Assembly (NCBI GenBank): GCA_031263095.1
Contig: JAISGI010000015.1
Coordinates: forward strand, 12,328-76,327
Direction of reading: 5' to 3'
Length of the DNA: 64,000 bases
From: Rickettsiales bacterium
Lineage (GTDB): Bacteria; Pseudomonadota; Alphaproteobacteria; Rs-D84; CACZYB01
Both the position numbers and the translations under genes were made by a program. Shown one piece after another: positions 2,174 through 41,439 of the stretch. Under the pieces are notes generated by a model that saw nothing but the letters and a program-made list of their open reading frames with translations, did no database searches and had not been told where the DNA came from. Every line of letters begins with the position of its first letter. Positions within the stretch are counted from its first letter, which is position 1.

Positions 2174-5014
2174 ATGAGAAAAGTACTTCTTTTCCTTGCC
2201 GCTTTTGTCATGGCGAATGGCGCCTTTGCGGCAAGGACTATAAACGGGATAACTTATTCCGAGGGACCCTACAGCTGCGCCGTCTGCGTGGCGGGCACCT
2301 ATTGCCCGCAGGGTTCGACAAGCTCCGTACCCTGCGTGCCCGGCGACTATTGCCCCGAGAATTCCGCGGCGAAGATAACCTGCCCGGGCGGGTCTTTCTG
2401 CACGACGCCGGCGACCAAGGACGACTGCGCCCTTGGCGAGTATTGCCCTGCCGGCACGACCGGAGCGACAATTCAGGATAGATTATGCGACGCAGGTTCG
2501 TTCTGCTCCACCACCACTTTGATAGCCAACTGCCTGCCCGGCGAATACTGCCCCGCCGGCACTTTCGCACCCGATAGGACAAGCAGGCTTTGTCCCGCAG
2601 GCTCGTGGTGCACGTCCGATACGCTTACCAAGAAGCCCTGCGGCTCTGGCGAGTATTGCCAGGCGGGTACTACCGAATCCGACCCGGAGAAAAGGAAATG
2701 TCCAGCGGGCAATTACTGTACCGATACTACCTCGCCTCCTTTGCCCTGCGACCTTGGCGAATACTGTCCGCTTGGAACTAGCGAGCAGAATTCCGCAAAC
2801 CGCCAGTGTCCCGCCGGCTGGTACTGCGCCGACACGACTGACAAGGTTGGGTGCGTATCGACCATGTATTGCCCGGAAGGCAGCACGACCCCGGATAGTT
2901 GCGCCGCGGGAAGCTATTGCTCCTCGGACGCCAAGACCCAGACGCCATGCGCAAGCGGCCAGTACTGCCCGGCCGGAAGCGTATTTACCCAGCCTTGCCC
3001 TGCTGGTTCCTACTGCGAGACCCCGGCGACGATAGCGCTCTGCCCGGCTGGCAAATATTGCGACGAGGGTTCGACCTTGCTCACGGACAGCACGCATGTC
3101 CACCCGTGCCCGGCCGGATATATCTGCGATGCCGGCACGACGCCCGCGACCAAGACGGCCACTTCCTGCTACGCCGGATTCGTATGCCCCGAGGGTACTT
3201 CGCCCGCGACTGCCAACAATACCAAGTGTCCCGCGGGCTACGTCTGCGGCTACGGCACCACTCCGGCCACGGCTCAGGATACGCAGTGTCCGGCTGGTTT
3301 GGTCTGCGGCGAGGGCGCGACCCCGAACGATGTTTCAAGCGTAAGCGGCAACGTCGGCTATTGCCCTGCCGGAAAAGTGTGCGACGTTGGCACTACCCCG
3401 GCGACCGCGAACAATACATGCTGCCCCGCCGGTTTTGCCTGCGGCGAGGGTACTTCGCCCGCGGACGTCGCAAACCCGAGCGGTTCGGACGGCCGTGTCG
3501 AGGTCTGCTCGTCCTGTCAGGCCTGCTCGGTGATAGTGCCCGATTCGACATCCTGCCCCGCCGGCCACTTCTGCTTCAACGGCATAAGGGGAACCTGCCA
3601 GGCGGGCGAATACTGCCCTGAGGGTGGAACCTACACCTCGGTCGAACGTAGCGACAGGCTCTGCGCCGGGGGCGATGTTTGCTCCGCCGACACCAAGACC
3701 ATAACCGATACATGCGACTCGGGCGAGTTCTGCCCTCCCGGCACCTACTATGGCCAAACCGTGGTATCCGCGGTAAGTGGACGGCAGGAATGCCCCGCAG
3801 GGTACTATTGCTCCACCGACACCAAGACTATAACCGAGTGCGAGACCGAGGGTTGGTACTGCTCCGCCGGCTCTACCACGTGGCAGTATTGCCCTGCTGG
3901 CTCGTACTGCTCCACTTCTAAGGTCATACAAGCATGCGTCGCTGGACAGTACTGTCCCGAGGCCTCGAGCGCCGCGGCAACCTGCCAGGCCGGTTATAAA
4001 TGCTCCAAAGAGGCGGACACAAGGTCCAAGTGTGACGAGGGCTGGCTCTGCTTAGCCGGAACATATGACACTCAGCCGATAGTCTCTGGCTCTTCCGGTG
4101 AGCAGCGTTGCCCCGCGGGACACGTGTGCGCCGCTGACGCGTCTTCCATTACGAAATGCACCGCAGGCGAGTATTGCAACGAGGGTACCTACGTCGGACA
4201 GCCTGTTGTCCCGGGCTCTACCGGACGCCAGACATGCCCGGCAGGCTATGAGTGTACTGACGACGCGGCCGCTATCGAGCCGTGCGAATCTGGACAGCTT
4301 TGTTTGGCGGGTTCAAACGTGGGCAAAATGGGCAGCTCCGGCACCGACATAGGCCGCCACCAATGTCCTGCGGGATACGAATGTTCGGCTGCCGCGTCAA
4401 GCTATACCGAGTGCGCCTCCGGCGAATACTGCCCTGCTGGCTCCTACGTGGGTCAGGCTGTGGTAGAGGCTTCCGCCGGCAGGCAAAGCTGTCCCGCCGG
4501 ACGCTACTGCCTGAATGCGGCAAGCATTTCCCAGTGCTCGCCCGGTTCGTACTGCCCGATAGGCATGACTACGGCGAATCCCGACTGTACGGCCGGTTCA
4601 TGGTGCACCACTGACGCCAAGACTATTACGGAATGTAGTGCTGGCGACTACTGCCCGGCGCGCACGTTCGCAGATAACGCCGCTGGAGTAAGTTGCCCGG
4701 TCGGATACGTATGTTCCAACGTGACGACCAAGAACAACTGCGGCGCTGGATATATCTGCCCTAATACCGGCATGCAGACTGCGATACCGTGCGCGCCTGG
4801 CTCGTACTCTGACGCGACGAACTCGACGGCGCTTGCCTGCATCGCTTGCCCAGCCAATGCCTGGAGCGACCCGGCCTCAAGCGCGCTTGAGGCCTGCGGC
4901 ACCTGCGACGCCGGCAAGTTCATCGAGGTCTGCCCGACCGGCGACTGCGACGCCGAGAAAAAGGCTCGCCCGAACTGCTCGTATAATTCGAACAATACAT
5001 ATACCTGCTCGTAA
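2174..5014 (+). CDS. large secreted cysteine-rich repeat protein (~40 tandem C-P-A-G-x-Y-C units; GCC2/GCC3- or ephrin-receptor-like pattern)
   Basis: An AGGAG Shine-Dalgarno site precedes the ATG at 2174. A signal peptide (MRKVLLFLAAFVMANGAFA) is followed by about 940 aa made of ~20–24-aa repeats of the form C(P/A)AG(S/T/Y)(Y/W/F)C...T(T/S)...C. A hairpin terminator follows at 5018-5048. The listed ORF start at 2060 reads through the upstream intergenic region and is unlikely to be the true start. Confidence 0.75.
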   Translation: MRKVLLFLAAFVMANGAFAARTINGITYSEGPYSCAVCVAGTYCPQGSTSSVPCVPGDYCPENSAAKITCPGGSFCTTPATKDDCALGEYCPAGTTGATIQDRLCDAGSFCSTTTLIANCLPGEYCPAGTFAPDRTSRLCPAGSWCTSDTLTKKPCGSGEYCQAGTTESDPEKRKCPAGNYCTDTTSPPLPCDLGEYCPLGTSEQNSANRQCPAGWYCADTTDKVGCVSTMYCPEGSTTPDSCAAGSYCSSDAKTQTPCASGQYCPAGSVFTQPCPAGSYCETPATIALCPAGKYCDEGSTLLTDSTHVHPCPAGYICDAGTTPATKTATSCYAGFVCPEGTSPATANNTKCPAGYVCGYGTTPATAQDTQCPAGLVCGEGATPNDVSSVSGNVGYCPAGKVCDVGTTPATANNTCCPAGFACGEGTSPADVANPSGSDGRVEVCSSCQACSVIVPDSTSCPAGHFCFNGIRGTCQAGEYCPEGGTYTSVERSDRLCAGGDVCSADTKTITDTCDSGEFCPPGTYYGQTVVSAVSGRQECPAGYYCSTDTKTITECETEGWYCSAGSTTWQYCPAGSYCSTSKVIQACVAGQYCPEASSAAATCQAGYKCSKEADTRSKCDEGWLCLAGTYDTQPIVSGSSGEQRCPAGHVCAADASSITKCTAGEYCNEGTYVGQPVVPGSTGRQTCPAGYECTDDAAAIEPCESGQLCLAGSNVGKMGSSGTDIGRHQCPAGYECSAAASSYTECASGEYCPAGSYVGQAVVEASAGRQSCPAGRYCLNAASISQCSPGSYCPIGMTTANPDCTAGSWCTTDAKTITECSAGDYCPARTFADNAAGVSCPVGYVCSNVTTKNNCGAGYICPNTGMQTAIPCAPGSYSDATNSTALACIACPANAWSDPASSALEACGTCDAGKFIEVCPTGDCDAEKKARPNCSYNSNNTYTCS

Positions 5015-5281: not shown

Positions 5282-6052
5282 TCACTCCTCGACCAGCCTA
5301 TTGAATTCCCTCTCGACCGCCGCATGCGCCGCAGCCGCCATTTCCTTGCGATTCGCATATTTCGCCAGGTCGAGCGGCTCGCCTATCGAGATCTCGGCCG
5401 ACACGGGAAATTTGTCGCGTATTGCGCCGAAATGCTGGGCAAGAGTCTGCTCCGGCAGATACCAGGAATAAAGCTGCCTCTCGGCAAGCGTCATCCGCCT
5501 CCGCCCGCGCCGCGTATATGCAATCGCCATGGGCTGTACGATTATATCCGCCGCGCCGCCGCCCTCGAATATGGAAAACATCGAGCTTTTGAAGGACAAA
5601 ATGCTTGCCCCGTCGCCGCTGGTTCCCTCGGGAAAGATAAGCAAGGGTATGCGCCGGCCGTCAAACGCCTGCTCGATGACGCTCACTTCGCCCGCCGCCG
5701 CCATCCGCCTGCGCGAGATGAAGACCGTGTTCCCAAGCCGCGTGATAACGCCGAACAGCGGCCAGGTGGCCACATCCTCTTTCGCAACAAAGTTTATTTT
5801 GAGAAGCCGCCCTATGGCAAGGATGTCAAGATACGACATGTGGTTGCACAGCAGCAGGACTTTCTTGCCCCCGACAATCCGTCCATGCCTGACCCGCGAA
5901 TGCAGGCCAAGGAAAAGGCAATAGACTTTGAAGTAAAAACGATGGAACGACGGCGCCAGCCACCGCAGCCCCGGCACATACCTCACCGCCCACATTATCG
6001 GCATGGCGACAATCGCCCATATGAACATGAAGAAAAGCTTTATGTAAATCAT
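5282..6052 (-). CDS. plsC: 1-acyl-sn-glycerol-3-phosphate acyltransferase
   Basis: Contains the HxxxxD acyltransferase motif (LCNHMSYLDI) and the FPEGTSGDG motif, with an N-terminal transmembrane segment. Confidence 0.8.
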   Translation of the reverse strand: MIYIKLFFMFIWAIVAMPIMWAVRYVPGLRWLAPSFHRFYFKVYCLFLGLHSRVRHGRIVGGKKVLLLCNHMSYLDILAIGRLLKINFVAKEDVATWPLFGVITRLGNTVFISRRRMAAAGEVSVIEQAFDGRRIPLLIFPEGTSGDGASILSFKSSMFSIFEGGGAADIIVQPMAIAYTRRGRRRMTLAERQLYSWYLPEQTLAQHFGAIRDKFPVSAEISIGEPLDLAKYANRKEMAAAAHAAVEREFNRLVEE

Positions 6053-6074
6053 ACTTTCCCTTTTTATTATTATA

Positions 6075-6128
6075 ACCTGTGGGAATGCCGGAAATAACTT
6101 GAAAAGTTATTCTGGCTTTCCACAGGCC
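6075..6128. repeat. REP-like palindromic element (CCTGTGG...CCACAGG family)
   Basis: acCTGTGGgaatgccggaaataacttgaaaagttattctggctttCCACAGG: a ~22-bp imperfect inverted repeat around a GAAAA loop. It is preceded by the T-rich stretch ttttattattataa. Confidence 0.6.
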
Positions 6129-6146
6129 TTAAACTCCTCCAGCTTC

Positions 6147-6569
6147 CTATTTAAGCTCCACCTTGTCGAAGTTTATTGGGTTCAAGACAAAAGGCGAGAA
6201 TCCCGAATCCGCTGTAACACCTGCGATGACCGCGCGTATGAACGGGAACAGATGCGAGGGGATGGTCTTGGTAAGCAGACGCTTCAAGGCCTCCTCTTCG
6301 GTTATATGCACCGCGGCCATGGAACCGTAGGCAAGCTCGATTACGAACAGCGGCTTGTCGGCAAGCGTGTTGGTAATCTTCAGGTTCATGACGACCTCGT
6401 AAAGCTCATCTCCCATTTTGGCTGTCTTGACCTCAAGGTTCATGTCGATTTTTGGCTGGCCCTCAAGCTTCTCGAAGAATATGCGCGGACTGGACGGCGC
6501 CTCGAACGAAAGGTCTTTGATATACTGGTTCAGGATTTCGAATTCCGGCTTCGGCTGGACGTTTTCCAT
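6147..6569 (-). CDS. secB: protein-export chaperone SecB
   Basis: 140 aa with typical SecB sequence (EFEILNQYIKDLSFE...LFVIELAYGSMAAV...FPFIRAVIAGVTADSGFSPFVLNPINF). Confidence 0.85.
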   Translation of the reverse strand: MENVQPKPEFEILNQYIKDLSFEAPSSPRIFFEKLEGQPKIDMNLEVKTAKMGDELYEVVMNLKITNTLADKPLFVIELAYGSMAAVHITEEEALKRLLTKTIPSHLFPFIRAVIAGVTADSGFSPFVLNPINFDKVELK

Positions 6570-6651
6570 TTATTGCTCCTTGTTTGGCTTGCTTTTCTCT
6601 CATTATAGGATATAATGGCCGCTACGCAACAAGTTTTTTAAGGAGTGGATT

Positions 6652-7684: not shown

Positions 7685-9643
7685 ATGGCTCAAAGTTCAT
7701 ACAGCGCGAAAGACATCGAGGTTTTGGAGGGGCTCGAGCCCGTCCGCATGCGCCCCGGCATGTACATCGGCGGCGTGGACGCGAACGCTCTCCACCATCT
7801 GGCAAGCGAGATTCTTGATAACGCTATGGACGAGGTCGGCGCCGGCTTCGCGCGCGAAATTTCTATGGAAATCTTGGAGGACGGCCGCGTCCGCATATCC
7901 GACGACGGCCGCGGCATTCCCGTGGACGACCATCCCAAGTTTCCGGGCAAATCCGCGCTCGAGGTGATACTCACAACGCTCCACTCCGGCGGCAAGTTCA
8001 GCGACAAGGTGTACCAGACCTCCGGCGGCCTGCACGGCGTCGGCTCCTCGGTCGTGAACGCGCTTTCTGAGGAAATGACGGTCGAGGTCTCCCGCGGCGG
8101 CAACATCTACCGCCAGAAATATTCCCGCGGCCTGCCGACTTCGAAACTCGAAATCGTCGGCAAATCCAAGAAGACCGGCACCACGGTCGAGTTCAAGCCC
8201 GACGCCACGATTTTTGGCGAGGGAAACGTGTTCAAACCGCTGCGGCTCTTTCGCATGGCGCGTTCCAAGGCGTTCCTTTTCAAGGGCGTGGTAATACACT
8301 GGAAGTCGCAGATTCCCGTGGATGGCGTGCCGGCTGAGGCTACGCTCAATTTTCCAAACGGCATCGCCGACTTCTTGGCCGAAACAATAGAAACGCGTCC
8401 TAAGGTGATAGACGAGATTTTCTATACCGAAACCCCGCTTGCCGAGGACAAGGGCAGGGTGGAGGTAGCTCTGTCGTGGATAGATACCACGCGCGAGGAG
8501 GGCGCGACCGGCGGGTTCATAAGCTCTTACGCCAATACGATTCCGACACCCGACGGCGGCACGCACGAGGCCGGGTTCAAGTCGGCCATCACGAAAAGCC
8601 TCAAATCTTTCGCCGACATGGTTGGCAATAAGAAATTCGCCCAGGTCATATCCGAGGATATTTTCGACGATGCCGCGGTGGTGCTCTCGCTCTTTTACAA
8701 GAACCCGCAGTTCCAGGGTCAGACCAAGGAGAAGTTCAGCTCTGCCGAGGCGACCCGCCTAATCGACACGGCGCTCAAGAACTATTTCGACTACTTTTTG
8801 ACCCAAAACCCGGCTCAATCTAATCTTTTGCTTGGTTATATAATCGAAAAGGCCGAGGCAAGGCTTAAACTTAAAAAGCTCAAGGAAACGATTCGCAAGT
8901 CGCCTACGAAAAAACTCCGCCTGCCGGGAAAATTGGCCGACTGCTCCAACCGCGACCGCACGGGAACCGAGCTTTTTTTGGTCGAGGGCGACTCCGCGGG
9001 TGGCAGCGCGAAACAGGCTCGCAGCCGCGCGACTCAGGCGATTCTCCCGCTGCGGGGAAAAATTCTCAACGTCGCCTCCGCCTCAAGCGACAAGCTCTCC
9101 GCGAACAAGGAGATTGGCGATATTACCGAGGCCTTGGGCGCGGGCGCCGGACGCGATTATAACGAGGACAAGCTCCGCTACGACAAGGTAATAATCATGA
9201 CCGACGCCGACGTCGACGGCGCGCATATAGCAAGCCTTTTGATGACGTTCTTCTTCGAGCAGATGCCAGGGCTCATCGCCGACGGCCACCTGTATCTGGC
9301 GCTTCCGCCGCTGTTCAAGGTCTCCGACGGCCGCACGTCGTACTACGCCATGGACGAGCAGGAAAAGGACGCTATAATCGCCAGGCATTTCAAAGGAAAA
9401 AAGGTCGAAATCTCCCGCTTCAAGGGCCTTGGCGAAATGATGCCGGGACAGCTCAAGGAAACGACAATGGATCCGAAAACGCGCCAGCTGCTGCGCGTGG
9501 AAATTCCTCCGCATACCGAGGAGGGGCGCGAGGATTTCGCCGCCACGCGCGAGCTTGTCGCCAACCTCATGGGCAAGAATGCCGAGTTCCGCTTTCGCTT
9601 CATACAGGAGGGGGCGAAGTTCGGGGTCGAGCTGGATATATAA
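7685..9643 (+). CDS. parE: type IIA topoisomerase B subunit, short form (topoisomerase IV subunit B ParE-like)
   Basis: 652 aa with the GHKL ATPase region (LEGLEPVRMRPGMYIGG...HHLASEILDNAMDE), a Toprim domain ([34 protein letters not shown]) and the DADVDG motif. It lacks the ~170-aa insertion present in the 818-aa GyrB at 13450. Confidence 0.8.
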   Translation: MAQSSYSAKDIEVLEGLEPVRMRPGMYIGGVDANALHHLASEILDNAMDEVGAGFAREISMEILEDGRVRISDDGRGIPVDDHPKFPGKSALEVILTTLHSGGKFSDKVYQTSGGLHGVGSSVVNALSEEMTVEVSRGGNIYRQKYSRGLPTSKLEIVGKSKKTGTTVEFKPDATIFGEGNVFKPLRLFRMARSKAFLFKGVVIHWKSQIPVDGVPAEATLNFPNGIADFLAETIETRPKVIDEIFYTETPLAEDKGRVEVALSWIDTTREEGATGGFISSYANTIPTPDGGTHEAGFKSAITKSLKSFADMVGNKKFAQVISEDIFDDAAVVLSLFYKNPQFQGQTKEKFSSAEATRLIDTALKNYFDYFLTQNPAQSNLLLGYIIEKAEARLKLKKLKETIRKSPTKKLRLPGKLADCSNRDRTGTELFLVEGDSAGGSAKQARSRATQAILPLRGKILNVASASSDKLSANKEIGDITEALGAGAGRDYNEDKLRYDKVIIMTDADVDGAHIASLLMTFFFEQMPGLIADGHLYLALPPLFKVSDGRTSYYAMDEQEKDAIIARHFKGKKVEISRFKGLGEMMPGQLKETTMDPKTRQLLRVEIPPHTEEGREDFAATRELVANLMGKNAEFRFRFIQEGAKFGVELDI

Positions 9644-9666
9644 CAAGCAAACAAAAGGAGCCTATA

Positions 9667-10110
9667 ATGCCCAAAACCGATGTCGGCGCCGGATGCGCAG
9701 TAGTGGTCTTCAACGAGAAGAAACAGTTTCTCATGCTCCACCGCCGCAAGGATGTCAAGCACGCACCCGACACATGGTGCCTTCCCGGCGGCTGGATAGA
9801 GAAGTTCGAGGAGCTGGAAATCGCCGCCGCGCGCGAAACGCTCGAGGAAACCGGAGTCCTTGTCCGCAATGTCAAAGTAATGGGCGTCCAGAACAATATA
9901 AGGCGCAACGAAGACCACCATACGATTACGGTGATTATGGCGGCGGTTATGAGGGATGGCAGTCCCGCACCCACGAACGCCGAACCGGACAAGGCCGACG
10001 CCGTGCGCTGGATAGATGATTGGAATAATATGCCCGCCCCGACATTCTCCGCCTACTCCGCCGCCGTCTCCCGCGAAACGCTCGAAAAATATCTGTCTGA
10101 AAATCTATAA
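9667..10110 (+). CDS. NUDIX hydrolase
   Basis: Carries a Nudix box (GGWIEKFEELEIAAARETLEETGV). Confidence 0.75.
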   Translation: MPKTDVGAGCAVVVFNEKKQFLMLHRRKDVKHAPDTWCLPGGWIEKFEELEIAAARETLEETGVLVRNVKVMGVQNNIRRNEDHHTITVIMAAVMRDGSPAPTNAEPDKADAVRWIDDWNNMPAPTFSAYSAAVSRETLEKYLSENL

Positions 10111-10222
10111 TCTTTTTGTTATTATTGCCCCTGTGGAATCAGGAGATAACTTGAAAAGTTATCCTTGATTCCATAGGGCACTTGGGTTATAGTCATAAAT
10201 GTCAAACCAAAGGACAAGACCG

Positions 10223-10800
10223 ATGACAAGGAACTATAAACGTACGGGGGGGGGCAAAAGGCTAAATACCTAGCGTTTACGCTTCTCCTACTATCAGCCA
10301 ACAACTCTCAATCAGCCAATTATTATACCTGCACAGCTTGCGCCGTGCCCGGTGTCTGCCAAGCCGGAGCAAGCACAGATTTTAATAAGTACAACGCTCC
10401 GCTCACACTTGCCGAGGCTACCGCCGCCATAGGAACACCCGCAACGAACAGGTGGACGCTTGTGGACGAGCAGCCAACCGCATACCAAGTAAAATGCGGC
10501 ACTCTTCCAACCGGAATATACCGTCTTGACGCATACAACTCGGTGGAATCCTACAGCTCGCAGATAGCCGTGCTCGATAAGCCGACGGATTATACCCTTT
10601 GGCTGAACGATAGTCCTACTCCTGGATTGAATGTAAGGATTTATATGGGGACCAATTCTTGCGGCGCTTTCAATGGCTGTAACGGTGAGAACTGCAAATT
10701 TATGATACTTGCGTCCACGAATTCCAGATATACGCCCGGCATAACGCTTGACGACATGAAGCATGCCGCAAGGAATGTCGCCATATATCGGCTTCAATAG
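10223..10800 (+). CDS. phase-variable small secreted Cys-motif protein, family copy A; G9 tract at 10246-10254 leaves it out of frame (ON at 10 G)
   Basis: Leader GTCAAACCAAAGGACAAGACCG-ATG (Shine-Dalgarno plus ATG at 10223). ATG ACA AGG AAC TAT AAA CGT ACG-G9 then hits TAG at 10271 with 9 G. With 10 G it reads MTRNYKRTGGGQKAKYLAFTLLLLSANNSQSANYYTCTACAVPGVCQAGASTDFNKYNAPLTLAEATAAIGTPATNRW...AIYRLQ (the frame of ORF 10345-10800). Confidence 0.8.
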
Positions 10801-10807
10801 GAAAAGG

Positions 10808-10874
10808 GCGCAGGGAAGATTGGCGGCACGGGCTTTGGTTAGACGCAAATACCTCCCGCCAATCTTCCTTGCGC
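10808..10874 (+). ncRNA. conserved structured 3'UTR element of the family (19-bp stem, ~30-nt loop carrying an anti-leader sequence)
   Basis: Stem GCGCAGGGAAGATTGGCGG pairs with CCGCCAATCTTCCTTGCGC, the only mismatch being a G·U pair in the sense transcript. The loop contains GCTTTGGTTAGACGC, complementary to the GTCTAACCAAAG leader. The same element follows copies B and K and, on the minus strand, copy D. Confidence 0.55.
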
Positions 10875-10891
10875 CCGAAACCTCAGGAATC

Positions 10892-12499
10892 TTAAACGCT
10901 CTTCCTAATTTCCTTGACCGCGGCGATAAGCGCGGTGGTCGAGGAATCATGCGCCGCAATGTCCGCGCTTTTCAGGTCGGCAACCACGGCCGAGGCAAGC
11001 TTTTTGCCAAGCTCCACCCCGAACTGGTCGAAACTGTTTATGTCCCACATTACCCCCTCGGCGAACGTCTTGTGCTCGTACAGGGCGACAAGCATGCCGA
11101 GCGAGGCAGGAGTGATTTTCCGCACCAAAAAAGTATTGCTCGGCCGGTTGCCCTCAAACGTCTTGAACGGCGCCAATAAATCGCCCGCAAGCTCCGGCGA
11201 ATCCGCGGCTCGCCCGCGCATAAGCGCCTCGGCCTGGGCAATACCGTTCGCGACAAGCTTTATATGGTGCTCGCCAAGCTCGTTGTGTGACAGCGCAGGT
11301 ATGATAAAGTCGCACATCATGGGCTTCGTGCCCTGGTGGATAAGCTGATAGAAGCTGTGCTGCCCGTTCGTGCCCTCCTCGCCGAACAACACGGGCGAGG
11401 TCTGGTATTTGACCGGCATGCCGTCGCGACCCACGTATTTCCCGTTGCTCTCCATGACAAGCTGTTGCAGGTATGAAGGCAGATAGGCGAGATAGTGGTC
11501 GTACGGCAACACGGCAAGCGTGTCCATGCCCAAAAAATTCGCATTCCATATTTCCATAAGCGCCATGATGATCGGGATATTTTGGCGGAAATCCGTGGAG
11601 CGGAAGTGTCGATCGGCCTCCGCCGCGCCGGCAAGCATGGCCTTGAAGTTTGCCGTGCCGATAGCTATCATGATTGCAAGCCCGATTGGCCCCCACATGG
11701 AATAGCGGCCGCCCACATAGTCGCCGAAGGGGAATACCTGTGCGGTCGGAATACCGAACTCGTTGGCAAGGCGCGCGTTGGTGGAAATCGCCGCGAAATG
11801 GTGCGCGACCGCGCTTGCGCCAAGCTTCTCGATAATCCAATTCCGGCACGTCGCGGCATTGGTCATCGTCTCGTCCGTGGTGAAGGTTTTCGACGATACT
11901 ATGAACAGGGTCGACTCCGGCTCCAGCCGCCGCAAAACCTCAGCCGTGTCCGTCCCGTCGACGTTCGAGATGAAGTGGAAATTGACAAGCGGCGACTTGT
12001 ACGGAAGCAGGGCATGGATAGCCATTTTTGGCCCAAGGAACGATCCGCCGATTCCTATATTCACCACGTCGAGGATTCGCCCCTTCTTCGCACCAGTGAA
12101 ACGTCCGTCCCTTACCCGCTCCGCAAACTCGCTTGTCGCCGCGAAAGTCTCGCGTATGTCGAGGGACACATTGCGCCCGTCCACGGTAAAGTCTTCGTCC
12201 ATGTTGCGAAGCGCGGCATGCAAAACGGCGCGGTTCTCGGTGAAGTTGATTTTCTTGCCAGCGAACATCGCTTCGATTGCCGAGGCCAAACCCGCCTGCT
12301 CCGCCATTTTTACAAGGAACCCGAGGGCTTTTTTATCCACAAGATTCTTGGAAAAGTCGAACATTATGTCGCCCAAGGCAAGGCTCATTTCGCCCGCCCG
12401 CTCCGGCTCTTGGTCGAACAGGTCGGTGATTTTATAGTCGCTTAAATAGGCTTGGTGCTTTTTAAGCTGGCCATAGGCCGACGTTTCGGTGAAATTCAT
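10892..12499 (-). CDS. pgi: glucose-6-phosphate isomerase
   Basis: 535 aa with typical PGI sequence (DYSKN...GGRYSMWGPIGL...HQGTKP). Confidence 0.9.
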   Translation of the reverse strand: MNFTETSAYGQLKKHQAYLSDYKITDLFDQEPERAGEMSLALGDIMFDFSKNLVDKKALGFLVKMAEQAGLASAIEAMFAGKKINFTENRAVLHAALRNMDEDFTVDGRNVSLDIRETFAATSEFAERVRDGRFTGAKKGRILDVVNIGIGGSFLGPKMAIHALLPYKSPLVNFHFISNVDGTDTAEVLRRLEPESTLFIVSSKTFTTDETMTNAATCRNWIIEKLGASAVAHHFAAISTNARLANEFGIPTAQVFPFGDYVGGRYSMWGPIGLAIMIAIGTANFKAMLAGAAEADRHFRSTDFRQNIPIIMALMEIWNANFLGMDTLAVLPYDHYLAYLPSYLQQLVMESNGKYVGRDGMPVKYQTSPVLFGEEGTNGQHSFYQLIHQGTKPMMCDFIIPALSHNELGEHHIKLVANGIAQAEALMRGRAADSPELAGDLLAPFKTFEGNRPSNTFLVRKITPASLGMLVALYEHKTFAEGVMWDINSFDQFGVELGKKLASAVVADLKSADIAAHDSSTTALIAAVKEIRKSV

Positions 12500-38459: not shown

Positions 38460-39020
38460 TTAATTCAGCTTGTACAAATACACCATGCCGGAAGTCCTGT
38501 CCATATCGGAAAGTGTGAGGCCGGGTGTGGCCATCCTTCCGCCGTTGGGGTTATTTGCGTACATTTGTGCTCCGTAAACCAAAACATTCTCTGCAGATCC
38601 CATATAAGGCGATTTGAAGAATACAAGGTCGGTGCAAGCATTGTTCAAACACCCTCCGGCATTCAACAGCGAATATATACGCACAGAGGCAGGCTGGTTC
38701 AATACCACTATGTTGGACGAGTAACTATTCCCGGCTACGTAGGCGTCTATGCGATAGACTCCAGGTGCGTAAAGGTTATCCGCTGAAGCGCTTATGCCAT
38801 TGCCGGGCGAAGAAGTTTGGGCGACGACCTGCCACCTCGATTTTTCCGGCGTTCCTATTGCTGCTGTCGCTTCTTCAAGCGTCAATACAGCATTGTACCT
38901 GCAATCTTGGGTGGCGCCGGATTGGCAGGCACCGGGCACGGCGCACGCCGAACAGGAATAATAGTTCGCCGCACCGGCTGGCATTGCCATAAGCATCACC
39001 ATTGCTAGTAGTTTTTTCAT
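38460..39020 (-). CDS. family copy I with no homopolymer tract: constitutive-type member with a standard signal peptide
   Basis: MKKLLAMVMLMAMPAGA-ANYYSCSACAVPGACQSGATQDCRYNAVLTLEEATAAIGTPEKSRWQVV...PGVYRIDAY...PGLTLSDMDRTSGMVYLYKLN. Shine-Dalgarno site AAGGAGG-ACTGA-ATG. It has all the family motifs but a different, uninterrupted leader. Confidence 0.85.
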   Translation of the reverse strand: MKKLLAMVMLMAMPAGAANYYSCSACAVPGACQSGATQDCRYNAVLTLEEATAAIGTPEKSRWQVVAQTSSPGNGISASADNLYAPGVYRIDAYVAGNSYSSNIVVLNQPASVRIYSLLNAGGCLNNACTDLVFFKSPYMGSAENVLVYGAQMYANNPNGGRMATPGLTLSDMDRTSGMVYLYKLN

Positions 39021-39210: not shown

Positions 39211-39299
39211 GGAAGGTTGGCAGAGCGGTAATGCAGCGGATTGCTAATCCGTGACGGGGTTAAATCCGTCCAGAGGTTCGAGTCCTCTACCTTCCGCCA
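39211..39299 (+). tRNA. tRNA-Ser (anticodon GCU), type II with a long variable arm
   Basis: Acceptor GGAAGGT/ACCTTCC, anticodon loop TTGCTAA, variable arm GACGGggttaaatCCGTC, T-loop GGTTCGAGTCC, and discriminator G followed by an encoded CCA. Confidence 0.85.
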
Positions 39300-39348: not shown

Positions 39349-40014
39349 CTATTTTATTTTTGCAGCCCTGCGCAGCACCCATCCGGATTCTCTCTTCCAT
39401 ATTACGCCTCGTCGGATGACGGACGCCGGGTTTCCCGCAATCGCGGTGTGTTTTTCCGAAAAGCTCTTTGTGACCACTGCACCGGCGCCGACTATGGTGC
39501 CGTCGGGTATGGAAGCATTTTTCGTGAATATTGCGGCTTGCCCTATCCAGCAGTGCTCTCCTATACGCAGCGGATTCCGCGGATTGCTTATTATTTCACC
39601 GGACGCCGCCTCTATTATTGCGTGTCCTTCCGACGGGCGCAGGGTTGCGCTGTTTATCATACAGTCTTTCCCAATCTCGCACCGACATTCCTCCGACATT
39701 CGGATGAACATCGGGCCCGAGCTCAATCCCTCGTCGATGGTCAATGTCTGCTTCTCTCCGTCCGACATAAGAATGCGGAGCTCGTTTATGTGGAGTGGAC
39801 TGCGGATTTCGATTTTGCAGTCATCGGCAAGGCATTCGATACTGCAATTTTTCGCATTCGTCGGAAAGAAAAACTTCACAAGATTGTTTTTCCCGCCAAG
39901 GGTTATGGCAAAGCCCGGGACTTTTTCTCCATGGGCAAGCTCTCGCTCGTTGCCATTCTCGACTACGATTATCTTGTTATCGGTTCCCGTATCTGACACA
40001 GACGATTCTGCCAC
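39349..40014 (-). CDS. hexapeptide-repeat (LbH) acetyltransferase. A C9 contingency tract (plus-strand G9 at 40042-40050) lies upstream; at 10 C an N-terminal extension from the ATG at 40151 joins in frame
   Basis: The core ORF begins at the GTG at 40014 and contains LbH repeats (IGEHCWIGQAAIFTKNASIPDGTIVGAGAVV). From the ATG at 40151 the reading frame (MEIRKALVNLICIFVPNRGLRHRIRTICAKSAIYPPP...) runs through the C-tract. With 9 C it terminates at 39969 (60 aa). With 10 C it continues as ...PPPTFPDKSNTDVAESSVS... into the acetyltransferase. Confidence 0.7.
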   Translation of the reverse strand: MAESSVSDTGTDNKIIVVENGNERELAHGEKVPGFAITLGGKNNLVKFFFPTNAKNCSIECLADDCKIEIRSPLHINELRILMSDGEKQTLTIDEGLSSGPMFIRMSEECRCEIGKDCMINSATLRPSEGHAIIEAASGEIISNPRNPLRIGEHCWIGQAAIFTKNASIPDGTIVGAGAVVTKSFSEKHTAIAGNPASVIRRGVIWKRESGWVLRRAAKIK

Positions 40015-40152
40015 ATCCGTATTGGATTTATCAGGAAACGTGGGGGGGGGTAAATCGCTGATTTTGCACAGATTGTCCGTATTCTATGGCGCAAGCCTCT
40101 GTTTGGGACGAAAATGCATATAAGATTGACGAGAGCCTTGCGGATTTCCATT

Positions 40153-40857
40153 TTACATATCCGCCCGGGTCTTCACCACCTTGTCAATCAAGCCAAAGCC
40201 TTGGGCTTCCTCGGCGCTCATGAAGTTGTCCCGCTCGACCGCTGCGGCGACCTCGGCAATCGGCCGCCCGGTGTGGAATGCATAAAGCGAATTGAGCTTC
40301 TCCCTGGTCTTCAAAATCTCCCGCGCGTGAATCTCGATGTCCGTGGCCTGACCTTGGTACCCGCCAAGCGGCTGGTGTATCATTATGCGCGAGTTGGTAA
40401 GCGCGAATCGCTTGCCCTTCGCACCGCCGGCGAGCAGAAACGAGCCCATCGAGCACGCCTGGCCAAGACAAAGCGTGGCCACATCCGGCTTGACGTACTG
40501 CATGGTGTCGTATATTGCAAGACCCGATGTCACTACACCGCCTGGCGAGTTTATGTACATGAATATGTCCTTGTCCGGGTTCTCCGACTCGAGAAACACA
40601 AGCTGCGCCACGACGAGCGAGGCCGAGGCATCGTTTATCTCACCGTTGATGAAGATTATACGCTCCTTGAGTAGGCGCGAGAATATGTCGAAACTCCGCT
40701 CGCCGCGGGCCGTCTGCTCGATTACATAGGGTATGAAATTCATTGAATCATCCATTTGAGGCTCCTTTTTTAAGAAGAGTCTAACATACTTTTTAGCCGT
40801 TGTAAAGCCTGTGGAAAGCCAAACGGTTATCCTCGCTTTCCACAGGAAAAATAACAA
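40153..40857 (-). CDS. clpP: ATP-dependent Clp protease proteolytic subunit
   Basis: Ser-His-Asp triad context ([14 protein letters not shown]...MIHQP). Confidence 0.9.
40808..40846. repeat. REP-like palindrome plus GGACTAGAATTATTACAAT motif (40861-40879, minus orientation)
   Basis: CCTGTGGaaagccaaacggttatcctcgctttCCACAGG. The motif's TAG is the stop codon of copy J. Confidence 0.55.
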
Positions 40858-40878: not shown

Positions 40879-41439
40879 CTAGTCCAGCTTATATATTGCT
40901 GCTTTGCCTTCCGAGCCTATGTCGTCACTTGTTATCCCTGGAGTAGTGATTACAACCGACGGTGCGTTATCTCTGACAGCCTGCTGTATATACCAATTAG
41001 GGTCATTGGGCTTGCGCGTCCATATCCACCCGCATAATAAACCGTCGCATTCAATTGTATGTTCCAAGTATCCTGTACGATTGTCGGGAATAACAGCCAC
41101 TCCGGAGCGTTTGTTGTTTGCAGCGCGTATGACGTCGAACCTATACACCCCTGGCACAAGCTCGACCGACTGATGATCTCCGGCAAATGCACTTTGCTTC
41201 ACAAGACTCCACCTTGATTTCTCGGGAGTACCTATGCAGCGTGTTGCCTCCTCAAACGAAAGTATGTTTTCTGTATAGGCGCAATCCTTTGTCATTCCTG
41301 CCTGACAAGCCCCTGGTACAGAACAATTGGTACAGGTATAGTAGTTTGATGATTGAGAGTTGTTGGCTGAAATCAGGAGAAGCGCAATAGCTAAATACTT
41401 ATTTGCCCCCCCCCGTACGCTTTTTGTTCATAATACTCA
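40879..41439 (-). CDS. phase-variable family copy J; C9 at 41405-41413 (ON at 8)
   Basis: The reverse strand reads GTCTAACCAAAGGATAAAGACATTA-ATG AGT ATT ATG AAC AAA AAG CGT ACG-G9. At 8 it gives MSIMNKKRTGGANKYLAIALLLISANNSQSSNYYTCTNCSVPGACQAGMTKDCAYTENILSFEEATRCIGTPEKSRWSLV...AAIYKLD. The promoter is TTGACA, 18-nt spacer, TATAGT. Confidence 0.8.

What the first reader, a model, noticed from the sequence alone, without database searches (positions are those of the whole stretch)
39349..40151. Seventeenth contingency tract: a C9 run that fuses or unfuses a 45-aa N-terminal extension onto a hexapeptide acetyltransferase
Plus-strand G9 at 40042-40050 lies 28 nt upstream of the acetyltransferase GTG at 40014. 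An ATG at 40151 opens a frame (MEIRKALVNLICIFVPNRGLRHRIRTICAKSAIYPPP) that reads through the tract. With 9 C it runs out of frame and stops at 39969. With 10 C (or 7) it continues into the LbH acetyltransferase and gives a 266-aa protein.

Phase-variable O-acetyltransferases of surface glycans are classic contingency genes elsewhere. Here this one would co-vary with the protein family by the same mechanism and the same tract length.
Basis: seen in the sequence. Interest (0 to 1): 0.75.

Follow-up and report, generated by a model that had tools for sequence, protein, structure and literature searches.

The report
Poly-C switch inside a sugar O-acetyltransferase gene
A run of nine C's splits a capsule-type O-acetyltransferase gene from its own conserved start, so one more C would restore the full enzyme; this is a familiar kind of on/off switch, found here in an uncultured alphaproteobacterium where every such run is exactly nine long and 'off'.

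Summary
A C9 run (minus strand 40050-40042) separates an ATG-40151 reading frame from the hexapeptide-repeat acetyltransferase frame. C10, C7 or C13 fuse them into proteins of 267, 266 or 268 aa.

The upstream piece is the enzyme's native N-terminus, not an optional extension. Its motif LVNLICIFVPNRGLRHRIR matches the first residues of full-length homologues (E 1e-9 to 4e-6). It starts 1 nt after the clpP stop. The annotated GTG has no ribosome-binding site, and three pipelines chose three different starts.

The closest solved structures are the capsule O-acetyltransferases OatWY and NeuO. Five of their six shared active-site residues are kept.

The tract encodes PPP in a predicted disordered linker. 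Distant homologues in other genomes carry G8-G10 runs in their coding sequences, one at the same linker position.

Most likely this is a slipped-strand on/off switch, read as OFF in the assembled consensus. Tract-length variation was not observed: the three available records, which are not independent, all show C9.

In 81 kb of this genome, all 18 G/C runs of six or more are exactly 9 and all are out of frame.

Verdict: new member of a known kind.

The parts
40051..40151 (-). 5' part of the acetyltransferase coding sequence. The ATG at 40151 is followed by the N-terminal module (aa 1-34, two predicted helices, motif LVNLICIFVPNRGLRHRIR).
   Evidence: ORF listing and translation. Motif aligned with the N-termini of P0002, P0003, P0007 and P0010. 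Pairwise BLASTP E 1e-9, 3e-8 and 4e-6. AF2 predicts helices 2-13 and 18-29.
40042..40050 (-). C9 homopolymer (G9 on the + strand). It encodes Pro-Pro-Pro in the inter-domain linker. It is the frame-setting element: C7/C10/C13 are in frame, C9 and C8/C11 are out of frame.
   Evidence: It lies within the predicted disordered segment 30-47.
39349..40041 (-). Rest of the acetyltransferase coding sequence in the frame reached at C10. It holds the linker and the LbH catalytic core (M165, H177, W202, W252, R254 in fused numbering) and ends at stop 39351-39349.
   Evidence: Pfam Hexapep 31.4 bits against a cut-off of 27. PDB phmmer: OatWY 5e-18, NeuO 1e-16, with alignment. Active-site residues taken from PMC3046976.
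40012..40014 (-). GTG used as the start in the NCBI annotation (221 aa). It is a weak candidate start. Other pipelines used GTG 39999 (216 aa) and ATG 39768 (139 aa).
   Evidence: Anti-SD duplex is -3.3 kcal/mol, against -8.7 to -12.1 for the strongest Shine-Dalgarno sites among the genes compared.
39969..39971 (-). TAA that ends the ATG-40151 frame at C9 (60-aa product). It lies 43 nt past the GTG.
40031..40033 (-). TGA that ends the ATG-40151 frame at C8 or C11 (39 or 40 aa). It lies 16 nt before GTG 40014, so termination-reinitiation is conceivable in that state (inference).
40153..40755 (-). clpP. Its TAA stop (40155-40153) is 1 nt from the acetyltransferase ATG, which suggests co-transcription and translational coupling.
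   Evidence: Sequence. ORF. The start at 40755 is inferred from the ClpP-like N-terminus.
40778..40806 (-). Sigma-70-like promoter match upstream of clpP. The scan found no promoter-like match between 40151 and 40014.
   Evidence: consensus scan only.
39211..39299 (+). tRNA-Ser(GCT), convergent with the acetyltransferase. It marks the downstream border of the gene.

Best explanation
This is one gene for a NeuO/OatWY-like polysaccharide O-acetyltransferase of about 267 aa. The protein has an N-terminal helical, probably membrane-associating, module, a disordered Pro-containing linker, and an LbH catalytic core. A poly-C tract sits in the linker codons.

The gene is most likely co-transcribed with clpP and translated from ATG 40151 by coupling to the clpP stop.

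Slipped-strand mispairing during replication would change the tract by one C at a time:
- C10 (or C7, C13) gives the full enzyme (ON).
- C9, the length in the assembly, ends translation after 60 aa (OFF or very low).
- C8 or C11 ends it after 39-40 aa, 16 nt before an internal GTG. That might allow some core enzyme lacking the N-terminal module.

The result would be reversible, stochastic acetylation of a surface glycan in a fraction of cells. It would run on the same mechanism as the genome's 17 G9-gated secreted-protein genes found so far, but independently of them.

Shown: the tract, the frames, the homology of both halves, and the intact active site. Inferred: that the tract length actually varies, the coupling to clpP, the membrane role of the N-terminus, and the glycan substrate.
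For: - Tract edits: C7/C10/C13 give 266/267/268 aa. C9 gives 60 aa. C8/C11 give 39/40 aa.
- The upstream 37 aa match the extreme N-termini of full-length homologues. A related intact homologue in another Rickettsiales MAG is followed by a capsule-type glycosyltransferase.
- The closest PDB sequences are OatWY (5e-18) and NeuO (1e-16). Met, His, Trp, Trp and Arg of their shared active site are conserved. Foldseek agrees.
- There are no other stops or frameshifts, and the tract sits in a disordered linker that tolerates a variable number of Pro.
- GTG 40014 has no SD sequence in a genome where many genes carry a clear AGGAG-type one. The ATG is 1 nt after the clpP stop. Three pipelines picked three different starts.
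- G/C runs of 6-8 are absent, while 16 runs of 9 occur against 0.74 expected.
- Distant homologues carry G8-G10 tracts inside their coding sequences: L004, L005, and L029 at the same linker position.
- In C. jejuni, poly-G/C contingency tracts have a modal length of 9. Measured rates (PMC3401435) give a steady state with 49% G9. A population consensus of 9 is therefore compatible with active switching.
Against: - No tract-length variation was seen. The NCBI and JGI calls come from the same contig, and a Logan re-assembly also shows C9. These records may all derive from one sample.
- No ON-length product of this gene, or of the 8 family genes looked up, exists among about 15 billion proteins.
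- The consensus state is OFF.
- All 18 tracts seen are exactly 9. That is more uniform than in cultured phase-variable species.
- A mutL gene is present, so mismatch repair may limit slippage.
- No glycan-synthesis genes lie in the window, so the substrate is unknown.
Confidence: 0.6

Rival explanations
1. The DNA tract is fixed at 9. The full enzyme is made at a low, constant level by RNA polymerase slippage, or by -1 ribosomal slippage on C CCC CCC at a poly-Pro stall. This would be expression tuning, not heritable switching.
For: All 18 G/C tracts seen are exactly 9, the length of the RNA:DNA hybrid in the elongation complex (hybrid length from PMC5574713). All are out of frame at the DNA level, and both +1 and -1 corrections are needed. 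Polymerase slippage can supply both. No DNA length variant was found.
Against: In E. coli and Buchnera transcriptomes, all slippage insertions in homopolymers were at A/T runs and none at G/C runs (PMC5574713). Ribosomal frameshifting cannot explain both directions across the gene set. G/C9 tracts within reading frames are the standard DNA-level contingency element in C. jejuni (PMC3401435).
Confidence: 0.13
2. The gene is a pseudogene, killed by a one-base deletion in a slippery run. There is no adaptive switching.
For: The consensus is out of frame in every available record. The gene is an orphan between clpP and a tRNA, with no glycan genes nearby. Its GC3 is atypical: 0.59 and 0.49, against 0.69-0.77 for housekeeping genes.
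Against: Both halves are otherwise intact. The N-terminal motif and 5 of 6 active-site residues are conserved, and there is no second lesion. The only defect lies exactly in a 9-nt run, in a genome that otherwise lacks G/C runs longer than 5. The other 17 tracts seen show the same arrangement, which is not how random decay looks.
Confidence: 0.1
3. The enzyme is translated from GTG 40014 (or 39999) as annotated. The tract lies in a leader or short upstream ORF and is irrelevant, or only modulates translation.
For: The 221-aa product contains the whole catalytic core, and OatWY itself is 215 aa. NCBI annotates it this way.
Against: The upstream ORF is homologous to the N-terminus of full-length relatives. 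The GTG has no SD. The scan found no promoter-like site between the ATG and the GTG. Three pipelines disagree on the start.
Confidence: 0.09
4. The true tract is C10 and the assembly under-called it, so the gene is simply intact.
For: Homopolymers are error-prone in sequencing. A single extra C restores the frame.
Against: An independent assembler (Logan) gives C9 over a 1,261-bp contig that is 100% identical. A systematic under-call cannot explain the 10 of 18 tracts that need one base fewer.
Confidence: 0.05

Closest known systems
NeuO, the phase-variable polysialic-acid O-acetyltransferase of E. coli K1 (CUS-3 prophage)
   Same: It is an LbH O-acetyltransferase and the second-best solved homologue (E 1e-16). 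The catalytic His and Trp and three further shared active-site residues are conserved. A simple-sequence repeat in the 5' coding region decides whether the full-length protein is translated (PMC13001214). The repeat encodes a flexible N-terminal segment that is disordered in the structure (PMC3046976).
   Different: NeuO uses a heptanucleotide repeat (AAGACTC, 3-53 copies), not a mononucleotide run. Its repeats are themselves the N-terminal extension and tune activity. Here the tract encodes only 2-4 Pro between a conserved helical N-terminal module and the core. The gene sits on the chromosome beside clpP, with no prophage seen in the window. The substrate is unknown.
OatWY, the capsule O-acetyltransferase of Neisseria meningitidis serogroups W and Y
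   Same: It is the best solved homologue (E 5e-18). Met108, His121, Trp145, Trp195 and Arg197 are all matched. It is also the top Foldseek hit.
   Different: Arg148 is Gln here. OatWY has no N-terminal helical module. I know of no repeat-based switching for it (from memory, not checked).
Poly-G/C contingency genes of Campylobacter jejuni (capsule, LOS and flagellin-glycan modification genes)
   Same: They have mononucleotide G/C tracts inside reading frames, with a modal length of nine. They switch by single-unit slippage (PMC3401435).
   Different: In C. jejuni the lengths spread over G8-G11 and many genes are ON. Here all 18 tracts are exactly 9 and all are OFF. The organism is an uncultured alphaproteobacterium (labelled 'Rickettsiales bacterium').
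Homologous acetyltransferase genes with G tracts found here (L004 Gastranaerophilales, L005 Lachnospiraceae, L029 IMG/VR contig)
   Same: They belong to the same enzyme clade (29-36% identity) and carry a G8-G10 run inside the coding sequence. In L029 the run is at the same linker position. In L005 it is at the junction between the N-terminal domain and the LbH domain.
   Different: The tract positions differ: in L004 it lies near the C-terminal AGNPA motif. The N-terminal domains differ, and the states differ: L029 is in frame at G8, while L004 and L005 are out of frame at G10. They come from unrelated taxa, so these are probably independent acquisitions.

Membership tests
Hexapeptide-repeat (LbH) acyltransferase superfamily | Hexapeptide repeats detectable by the Pfam Hexapep model above its gathering score | tested here: met
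   PF00132 scores 31.4 bits against a cut-off of 27, at residues 196-229.
Hexapeptide-repeat (LbH) acyltransferase superfamily | Left-handed beta-helix fold | tested here: inconclusive
   The AF2 model has a mean pLDDT of 69 and the mid-region is poorly modelled. The top Foldseek hits are all LbH enzymes, but TM-scores are only 0.4-0.5.
NeuO/OatWY-type polysaccharide (sialate) O-acetyltransferases | Catalytic His and Trp (OatWY H121/W145; NeuO H147/W171) | tested here: met
   H177 and W202 align to them (residues from PMC3046976). Both are invariant in alignment A1.
NeuO/OatWY-type polysaccharide (sialate) O-acetyltransferases | The other four active-site residues shared by NeuO and OatWY (Met108, Arg148, Trp195, Arg197 in OatWY) | tested here: inconclusive
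   Three of four are kept: M165, W252 and R254. Arg148 is replaced by Gln205.
NeuO/OatWY-type polysaccharide (sialate) O-acetyltransferases | Acetylates sialic-acid-containing capsule polymer | not testable with these tools
   No nonulosonic-acid or capsule genes lie in the window. A homologue in L029 sits next to a NeuB-like gene, which is only suggestive.
Named NCBIfam equivalogs (WbbJ, maltose O-acetyltransferase, NeuD/PglB/VioB, WcaF) | Score at or above the curated cut-off | tested here: not met
   The best hits are 47.4 against 243 (WbbJ), 44.8 against 314 (Maa) and 41.3 against 160.8 (NeuD). The protein is not a member of any of these.
Simple-sequence-repeat contingency (phase-variable) locus | Mutable repeat of a length known to slip, inside the coding sequence or promoter | tested here: met
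   C9 lies 101 nt into the coding sequence. Nine is the modal length of C. jejuni phase-variable tracts.
Simple-sequence-repeat contingency (phase-variable) locus | Single-unit changes toggle synthesis of the full product | tested here: met
   In-silico lengths 7-13 were tested. Homology shows the fused product is the real protein.
Simple-sequence-repeat contingency (phase-variable) locus | Repeat number varies within or between populations | tested here: inconclusive
   Only three records exist, and all read C9. They may come from the same sample. No ON-length proteins are on record. No close relatives were found in the genome or metagenome collections. Read-level data could not be accessed.
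Simple-sequence-repeat contingency (phase-variable) locus | Reversible phenotypic switching | not testable with these tools
   The organism is uncultured.
Programmed transcriptional slippage | Homopolymer about as long as the RNA:DNA hybrid (9 or more), usually A or T | tested here: inconclusive
   The length criterion is met (9). The composition criterion is not: the run is C/G, for which no slippage insertions were seen in E. coli or Buchnera.

The most novel reading that the evidence does not exclude
The acetyltransferase tract would be one element of a genome-wide, length-uniform 'default-OFF' switchboard.

- Every G/C run of six or more found so far (18 of 18 in 81 kb) is exactly 9.
- If the mutational spectrum resembles that of C. 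jejuni, 9 is the mutational mode.
- Every gated gene is placed one step away from that mode: 8 genes need +1 and 10 need -1.
- A population consensus would then read all-OFF, while each cell expresses a random minority of its surface proteins and, independently, an acetylated or non-acetylated glycan.

For the acetyltransferase the three frames could give three states: the enzyme with its N-terminal module (C10), a core-only enzyme made by termination-reinitiation (C8/C11), and none (C9).
Probability: 0.3. Interest if true: 0.7.

Novelty: new member of a known kind. Interest (0 to 1): 0.42.

Why it matters
Phase-variable O-acetylation of surface glycans changes recognition by phages, antibodies and host receptors in pathogens such as E. 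coli K1. Finding the same design in an uncultured alphaproteobacterium suggests that contingency-locus strategies extend well beyond the classic pathogens.

The design here has three parts:
- a NeuO/OatWY-like enzyme gated by a repeat in its 5' coding region;
- at least 17 identically gated secreted-protein genes;
- no accidental G/C runs elsewhere in the sequence examined.

There is also a practical point. All three annotation pipelines mis-start this gene because they cannot read through the tract. Repeat-aware annotation would recover the true protein.

The uniform all-9, all-OFF pattern makes a directly testable prediction about read-level tract-length distributions.

Tried and rejected
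- Close relatives for tract-length comparison. Protein-guided scans of genome contigs and metagenome contigs found only distant homologues (29-37% identity) and not the source genome.
- Exact look-up of ON-length products of the acetyltransferase (C10, C7) and of 8 family genes. None is in the collection.
- Homologue search with an ON-version family protein. It returned only four proteins, all from the same MAG, so it gave no outside view of tract states.
- The Logan contig L001 is identical, including C9. It may come from the same reads, and its assembler pops bubbles, so it neither proves nor disproves heterogeneity.
- The Rfam scan of 36-44 kb found only the tRNA. There is no known RNA element at the tract.
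- The promoter scan found nothing between ATG 40151 and GTG 40014. This is weak evidence only.
- Ribosomal frameshifting as a general mechanism was rejected, because the gene set needs both +1 and -1 corrections.
- A systematic homopolymer under-call was rejected for the same reason.
- Pfam on the family proteins gave no significant hit.
- A literature search for the source lineage gave nothing specific. I make no claim about habitat.

Full report
**The observation**

The + strand carries G9 at 40042-40050, which is C9 on the minus, coding strand. On the minus strand, an ATG at 40151 opens MEIRKALVNLICIFVPNRGLRHRIRTICAKSAIYPPP. This frame runs into the tract and, at C9, ends after 60 aa at TAA 39971-39969. 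A second frame runs from GTG 40014 to the stop at 39349 and encodes a 221-aa hexapeptide-repeat protein.

Editing the tract in silico gives the following:

| Tract length | Product |
|---|---|
| C7 | 266 aa, fused |
| C8 | 39 aa, stop at TGA 40033-40031 |
| C9 | 60 aa |
| C10 | 267 aa, fused |
| C11 | 40 aa, stop at TGA 40033-40031 |
| C13 | 268 aa, fused |

C10 gives 267 aa, not 266. I count 16 G/C9 runs in the window, not 17.

The tracts are far from chance. There are 16 matches against 0.74 expected from shuffles. No G/C run of 6, 7, 8 or 10 or more exists in the window.

**Source of the sequence**

The 221-aa product is MDR1008960.1, locus tag LBL52_01765, from a MAG labelled 'Rickettsiales bacterium', on a 105,376-bp contig. 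The same contig is in JGI/IMG. A Logan re-assembly of SRR14710921 yields a 1,261-bp contig that is 100% identical, including C9.

**Is the upstream ORF real protein?**

Yes. A search with the fused protein returns full-length homologues of 234-248 aa that cover 93-97% of the query. In the alignment their extreme N-termini carry the same motif:
- P0010: KGFLNFLCIFIPSRKLRHRIR
- P0002: KKLFVNILCAFVPKKEWRHRLR
- P0003: MAKILCIFAPTRVIRHRIR
- P0007: LKRFLCLFIPVAKVRHKILR

Pairwise BLASTP of the 37 upstream residues against these proteins gives E = 1e-9, 3e-8 and 4e-6. Each match falls at the start of the subject, beginning at residue 2, 12 and 1 respectively. An out-of-frame leader would not show this.

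Several other points support ATG 40151 as the true start:
- It lies 1 nt after the clpP stop (…ATG TAA A ATG…), an arrangement that favours translational coupling.
- Many genes in this genome carry a clear AGGAG-type Shine-Dalgarno site, but GTG 40014 has none: -3.3 kcal/mol, against -8.7 to -12.1 for the strongest sites.
- Three annotation pipelines chose three different starts downstream of the tract: GTG 40014 (221 aa), GTG 39999 (216 aa) and ATG 39768 (139 aa).
- The promoter scan found no sigma-70-like site between 40151 and 40014. The nearest plausible one is upstream of clpP at 40806-40778.

**What the enzyme is**

Pfam Hexapep passes its cut-off. No NCBIfam equivalog comes near its cut-off.

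Against all PDB sequences the two best hits are the capsule O-acetyltransferases OatWY (2wlc, E 5e-18) and NeuO (3jqy, E 1e-16). Maltose and galactoside acetyltransferases follow far behind.

I mapped the HMMER alignment onto the six active-site residues that Schulz et al. report as shared by NeuO and OatWY (PMC3046976). Five are conserved:
- Met108 corresponds to M165.
- His121 corresponds to H177.
- Trp145 corresponds to W202.
- Trp195 corresponds to W252.
- Arg197 corresponds to R254.

Arg148 is replaced by Gln205.

An AlphaFold model (mean pLDDT 69) has two N-terminal helices (2-13 and 18-29), a disordered segment at 30-47 that contains the tract-encoded PPP, and then beta structure. Foldseek again ranks OatWY and NeuO first.

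The catalytic core is complete in the 221-aa frame. The N-terminal helices form a separate module joined to it by a flexible linker. That linker is longer here than in the homologues. It is the kind of place where a variable number of Pro residues is tolerated.

**Genomic context**

The gene lies between clpP and a convergent tRNA-Ser(GCT). The neighbourhood is otherwise housekeeping: rho, surA-like, lptD. No glycan-synthesis genes are in the window.

Its GC3 is 0.59 for the core and 0.49 for the N-terminal part. This resembles the paralogous secreted-protein family (0.48-0.56) rather than the housekeeping genes (0.69-0.77). It therefore looks like accessory DNA.

In another Rickettsiales MAG (L009), an intact homologue without a tract overlaps a Caps_synth/Gly_transf_sug glycosyltransferase. 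In a gut alphaproteobacterial MAG (L002), an intact 263-aa homologue sits in a glycan cluster. Its neighbour there carries the same kind of N-terminal motif. Both contexts support a role in glycan modification.

**The tract set as a whole**

The other 15 tracts in the window each lie 20-26 nt after the SD-preceded ATG of a family gene. A further in-frame ATG lies upstream in two of them. The family encodes proteins of about 180-210 aa, in which the tract separates the start from the signal peptide.

At length 9 all 16 genes are out of frame. Seven, including the acetyltransferase, need 10 (or 7). Nine need 8 (or 11).

A second contig of the same bin (L012) adds two more family genes. Both tracts are again exactly 9 and out of frame; one needs 10 and the other 8. 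That makes 18 of 18, with (2/3)^18 = 7e-4 if frames were random.

Because corrections in both directions are needed, two explanations fail as general accounts: a systematic sequencing under-call, and a single direction of ribosomal frameshifting.

**Why might all tracts be 9?**

Bayliss et al. found a modal length of nine for C. jejuni poly-G/C tracts. They also saw an insertion bias at G8/G9 and a deletion bias at G10/G11 (PMC3401435).

I put their measured single-step rates into a detailed-balance calculation. The steady state for G7 to G11 is 6%, 15%, 49%, 28% and 3%.

If this organism has a similar mutational spectrum, a population near mutational equilibrium would show 9 at every tract in a consensus assembly. 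Each gene would still be ON in roughly 17-34% of cells. This is an analogy, not a measurement.

That none of the 18 genes is in frame at the mode would then reflect selection for a default-OFF layout.

The main rival is expression by RNA polymerase slippage on a fixed 9-nt tract, nine being the length of the RNA:DNA hybrid. However, in E. coli and Buchnera all homopolymer slippage insertions were at A/T runs and none at G/C runs (PMC5574713).

**Parallels in relatives**

Several distant homologues fetched here carry G tracts inside the gene.

| Locus | Source | Tract | Position and state |
|---|---|---|---|
| L004 | Gastranaerophilales MAG | G10 | Just before the AGNPA motif. Out of frame at 10, in frame at 9. 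A second G10 splits the neighbouring gene, which looks like a DegT-type aminotransferase. |
| L005 | Lachnospiraceae MAG | G10 | Exactly between an N-terminal domain ORF and the LbH ORF. |
| L029 | IMG/VR contig | G8 | In frame, at the same linker position as here. The next gene looks NeuB-like by eye. |

Many relatives lie on viral or prophage contigs, as NeuO does.

NeuO itself is switched by a heptanucleotide repeat in its 5' coding region. Full-length translation occurs only when the repeat number is divisible by three (PMC13001214). Repeat-gated expression thus recurs in this enzyme clade.

**What could not be shown**

I found no record with a different tract length. The source genome and any close relatives are absent from the searchable genome and metagenome collections. 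ON-length products are not in the protein collection. The only re-assembly agrees with C9.

A mutL gene is present, so the tracts may be less mutable than in C. jejuni.

Variation in tract length is the defining property of a contingency locus, and it remains untested. Read-level profiling would settle it.

**Verdict**

The C tract does gate fusion of a real, conserved N-terminal module to a NeuO/OatWY-like O-acetyltransferase.

The most likely mechanism is slipped-strand ON/OFF switching, with the assembled state OFF (confidence about 0.6). The 'extension' is the native N-terminus rather than an option. 'Co-variation' with the family is not expected. Length variation is unproven.

As a kind of system this is a new member of a known class. 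The uniform all-9, all-OFF pattern across the genome is the unusual part.

Noticed in passing
window 10246, 12626, 21033, 22327, 23323, 25910, 30024, 32228, 41406, 45841, 51339, 54530, 56558, 57562, 60443 (tract starts); L012 3281-3289 and 9906-9914: Seventeen paralogous genes encode secreted proteins of about 180-210 aa. They share a conserved N-terminus (…NNSQSSNYYTC(T/S)ACAVPGACQAGA…), a variable middle and a C-terminal (I/L)Y(K/R)L(N/D/Q). Each has a G9 tract between an SD-preceded ATG and the signal peptide. All are out of frame at 9. There are two classes: …RTGGGQKAKY… needs 10 and …RTGGANKY… needs 8. There is no Pfam match, and homologues were found only in this MAG.
   Followed up: partly
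window 38460-39020 (-); P0047 on L011 275-793: Two members of the same family have an ordinary signal peptide (MKKLLAMVML…, MKKNFCIITML…) and no tract. They look like constitutive paralogues alongside the gated ones.
   Followed up: no
window 6106, 23947, 26507, 40826, 41530, 54620(-), 54649, 60553: A 21-nt motif, GTTATCCTCGCTTTCCACAGG, occurs 8 times with up to 2 mismatches, against 0 expected. Most copies lie at the borders of family genes. Two perfect direct copies 704 bp apart (40826 and 41530) bracket the family gene next to clpP together with its promoter. This may be a cassette boundary or a recombination site.
   Followed up: partly
whole window; L012: G/C homopolymers are strongly truncated. 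There are 25 runs of 5, none of 6-8, and then 16 of exactly 9. L012 shows the same pattern (14 runs of 5, then 2 of 9). This suggests selection against accidental slippery runs.
   Followed up: partly
window 40042-40055 and 41401-41414: The acetyltransferase tract and the tract of the neighbouring family gene form a 14-nt inverted repeat (GGGGGGGGGTAAAT / ATTTGCCCCCCCCC, 93% complementary) that flanks clpP. On the + strand the acetyltransferase tract also shares AAACGT…G9…(T/C)AAAT with the family context. This could be coincidence or a trace of shared origin.
   Followed up: no
L004 6277-6286 and 7226-7235: A Gastranaerophilales MAG (rabbit gut) has two G10 tracts. One splits a gene that looks like a DegT-type aminotransferase by eye (ORFs 5453-6310 and 6303-6605). 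The other frameshifts the homologous acetyltransferase just before its AGNPA motif; it would be in frame at G9.
   Followed up: partly
L005 9556-9565: A Lachnospiraceae MAG (water deer colon) has a G10 tract exactly between an N-terminal domain ORF (9169-9579) and the LbH acetyltransferase ORF (9554-10411). G9 would fuse them.
   Followed up: partly
L029 2966-2973: On an IMG/VR contig from a human metagenome, the homologous acetyltransferase (2839-3534) has an in-frame G8 (…VNRGGIY…). It lies at the same position between the N-terminal helix and the LbH domain. The next gene (3498-4430) looks NeuB-like by eye.
   Followed up: partly
L002 8614-9867, 9851-10642, 11334-11342: In a gut alphaproteobacterial MAG the intact homologue and the 417-aa protein upstream both begin with the hydrophobic-then-basic motif (…LFCALIPVKTLRRKCR…). 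This suggests a shared N-terminal module among glycan enzymes. A G9 lies in frame in the next ORF (10646-11473).
   Followed up: no
L012 3418-5121 and 5165-7276: The same bin encodes MutL (mismatch repair) and a TraG/VirD4-type coupling protein (T4SS-DNA_transf, TrwB). MutL is relevant to how mutable the tracts can be.
   Followed up: no
window 39349-40151 compared with neighbours: The acetyltransferase (GC3 0.59 and 0.49) and the family genes (0.48-0.56) are compositionally distinct from the housekeeping genes (0.69-0.77). This hints at acquired or differently constrained DNA.
   Followed up: partly
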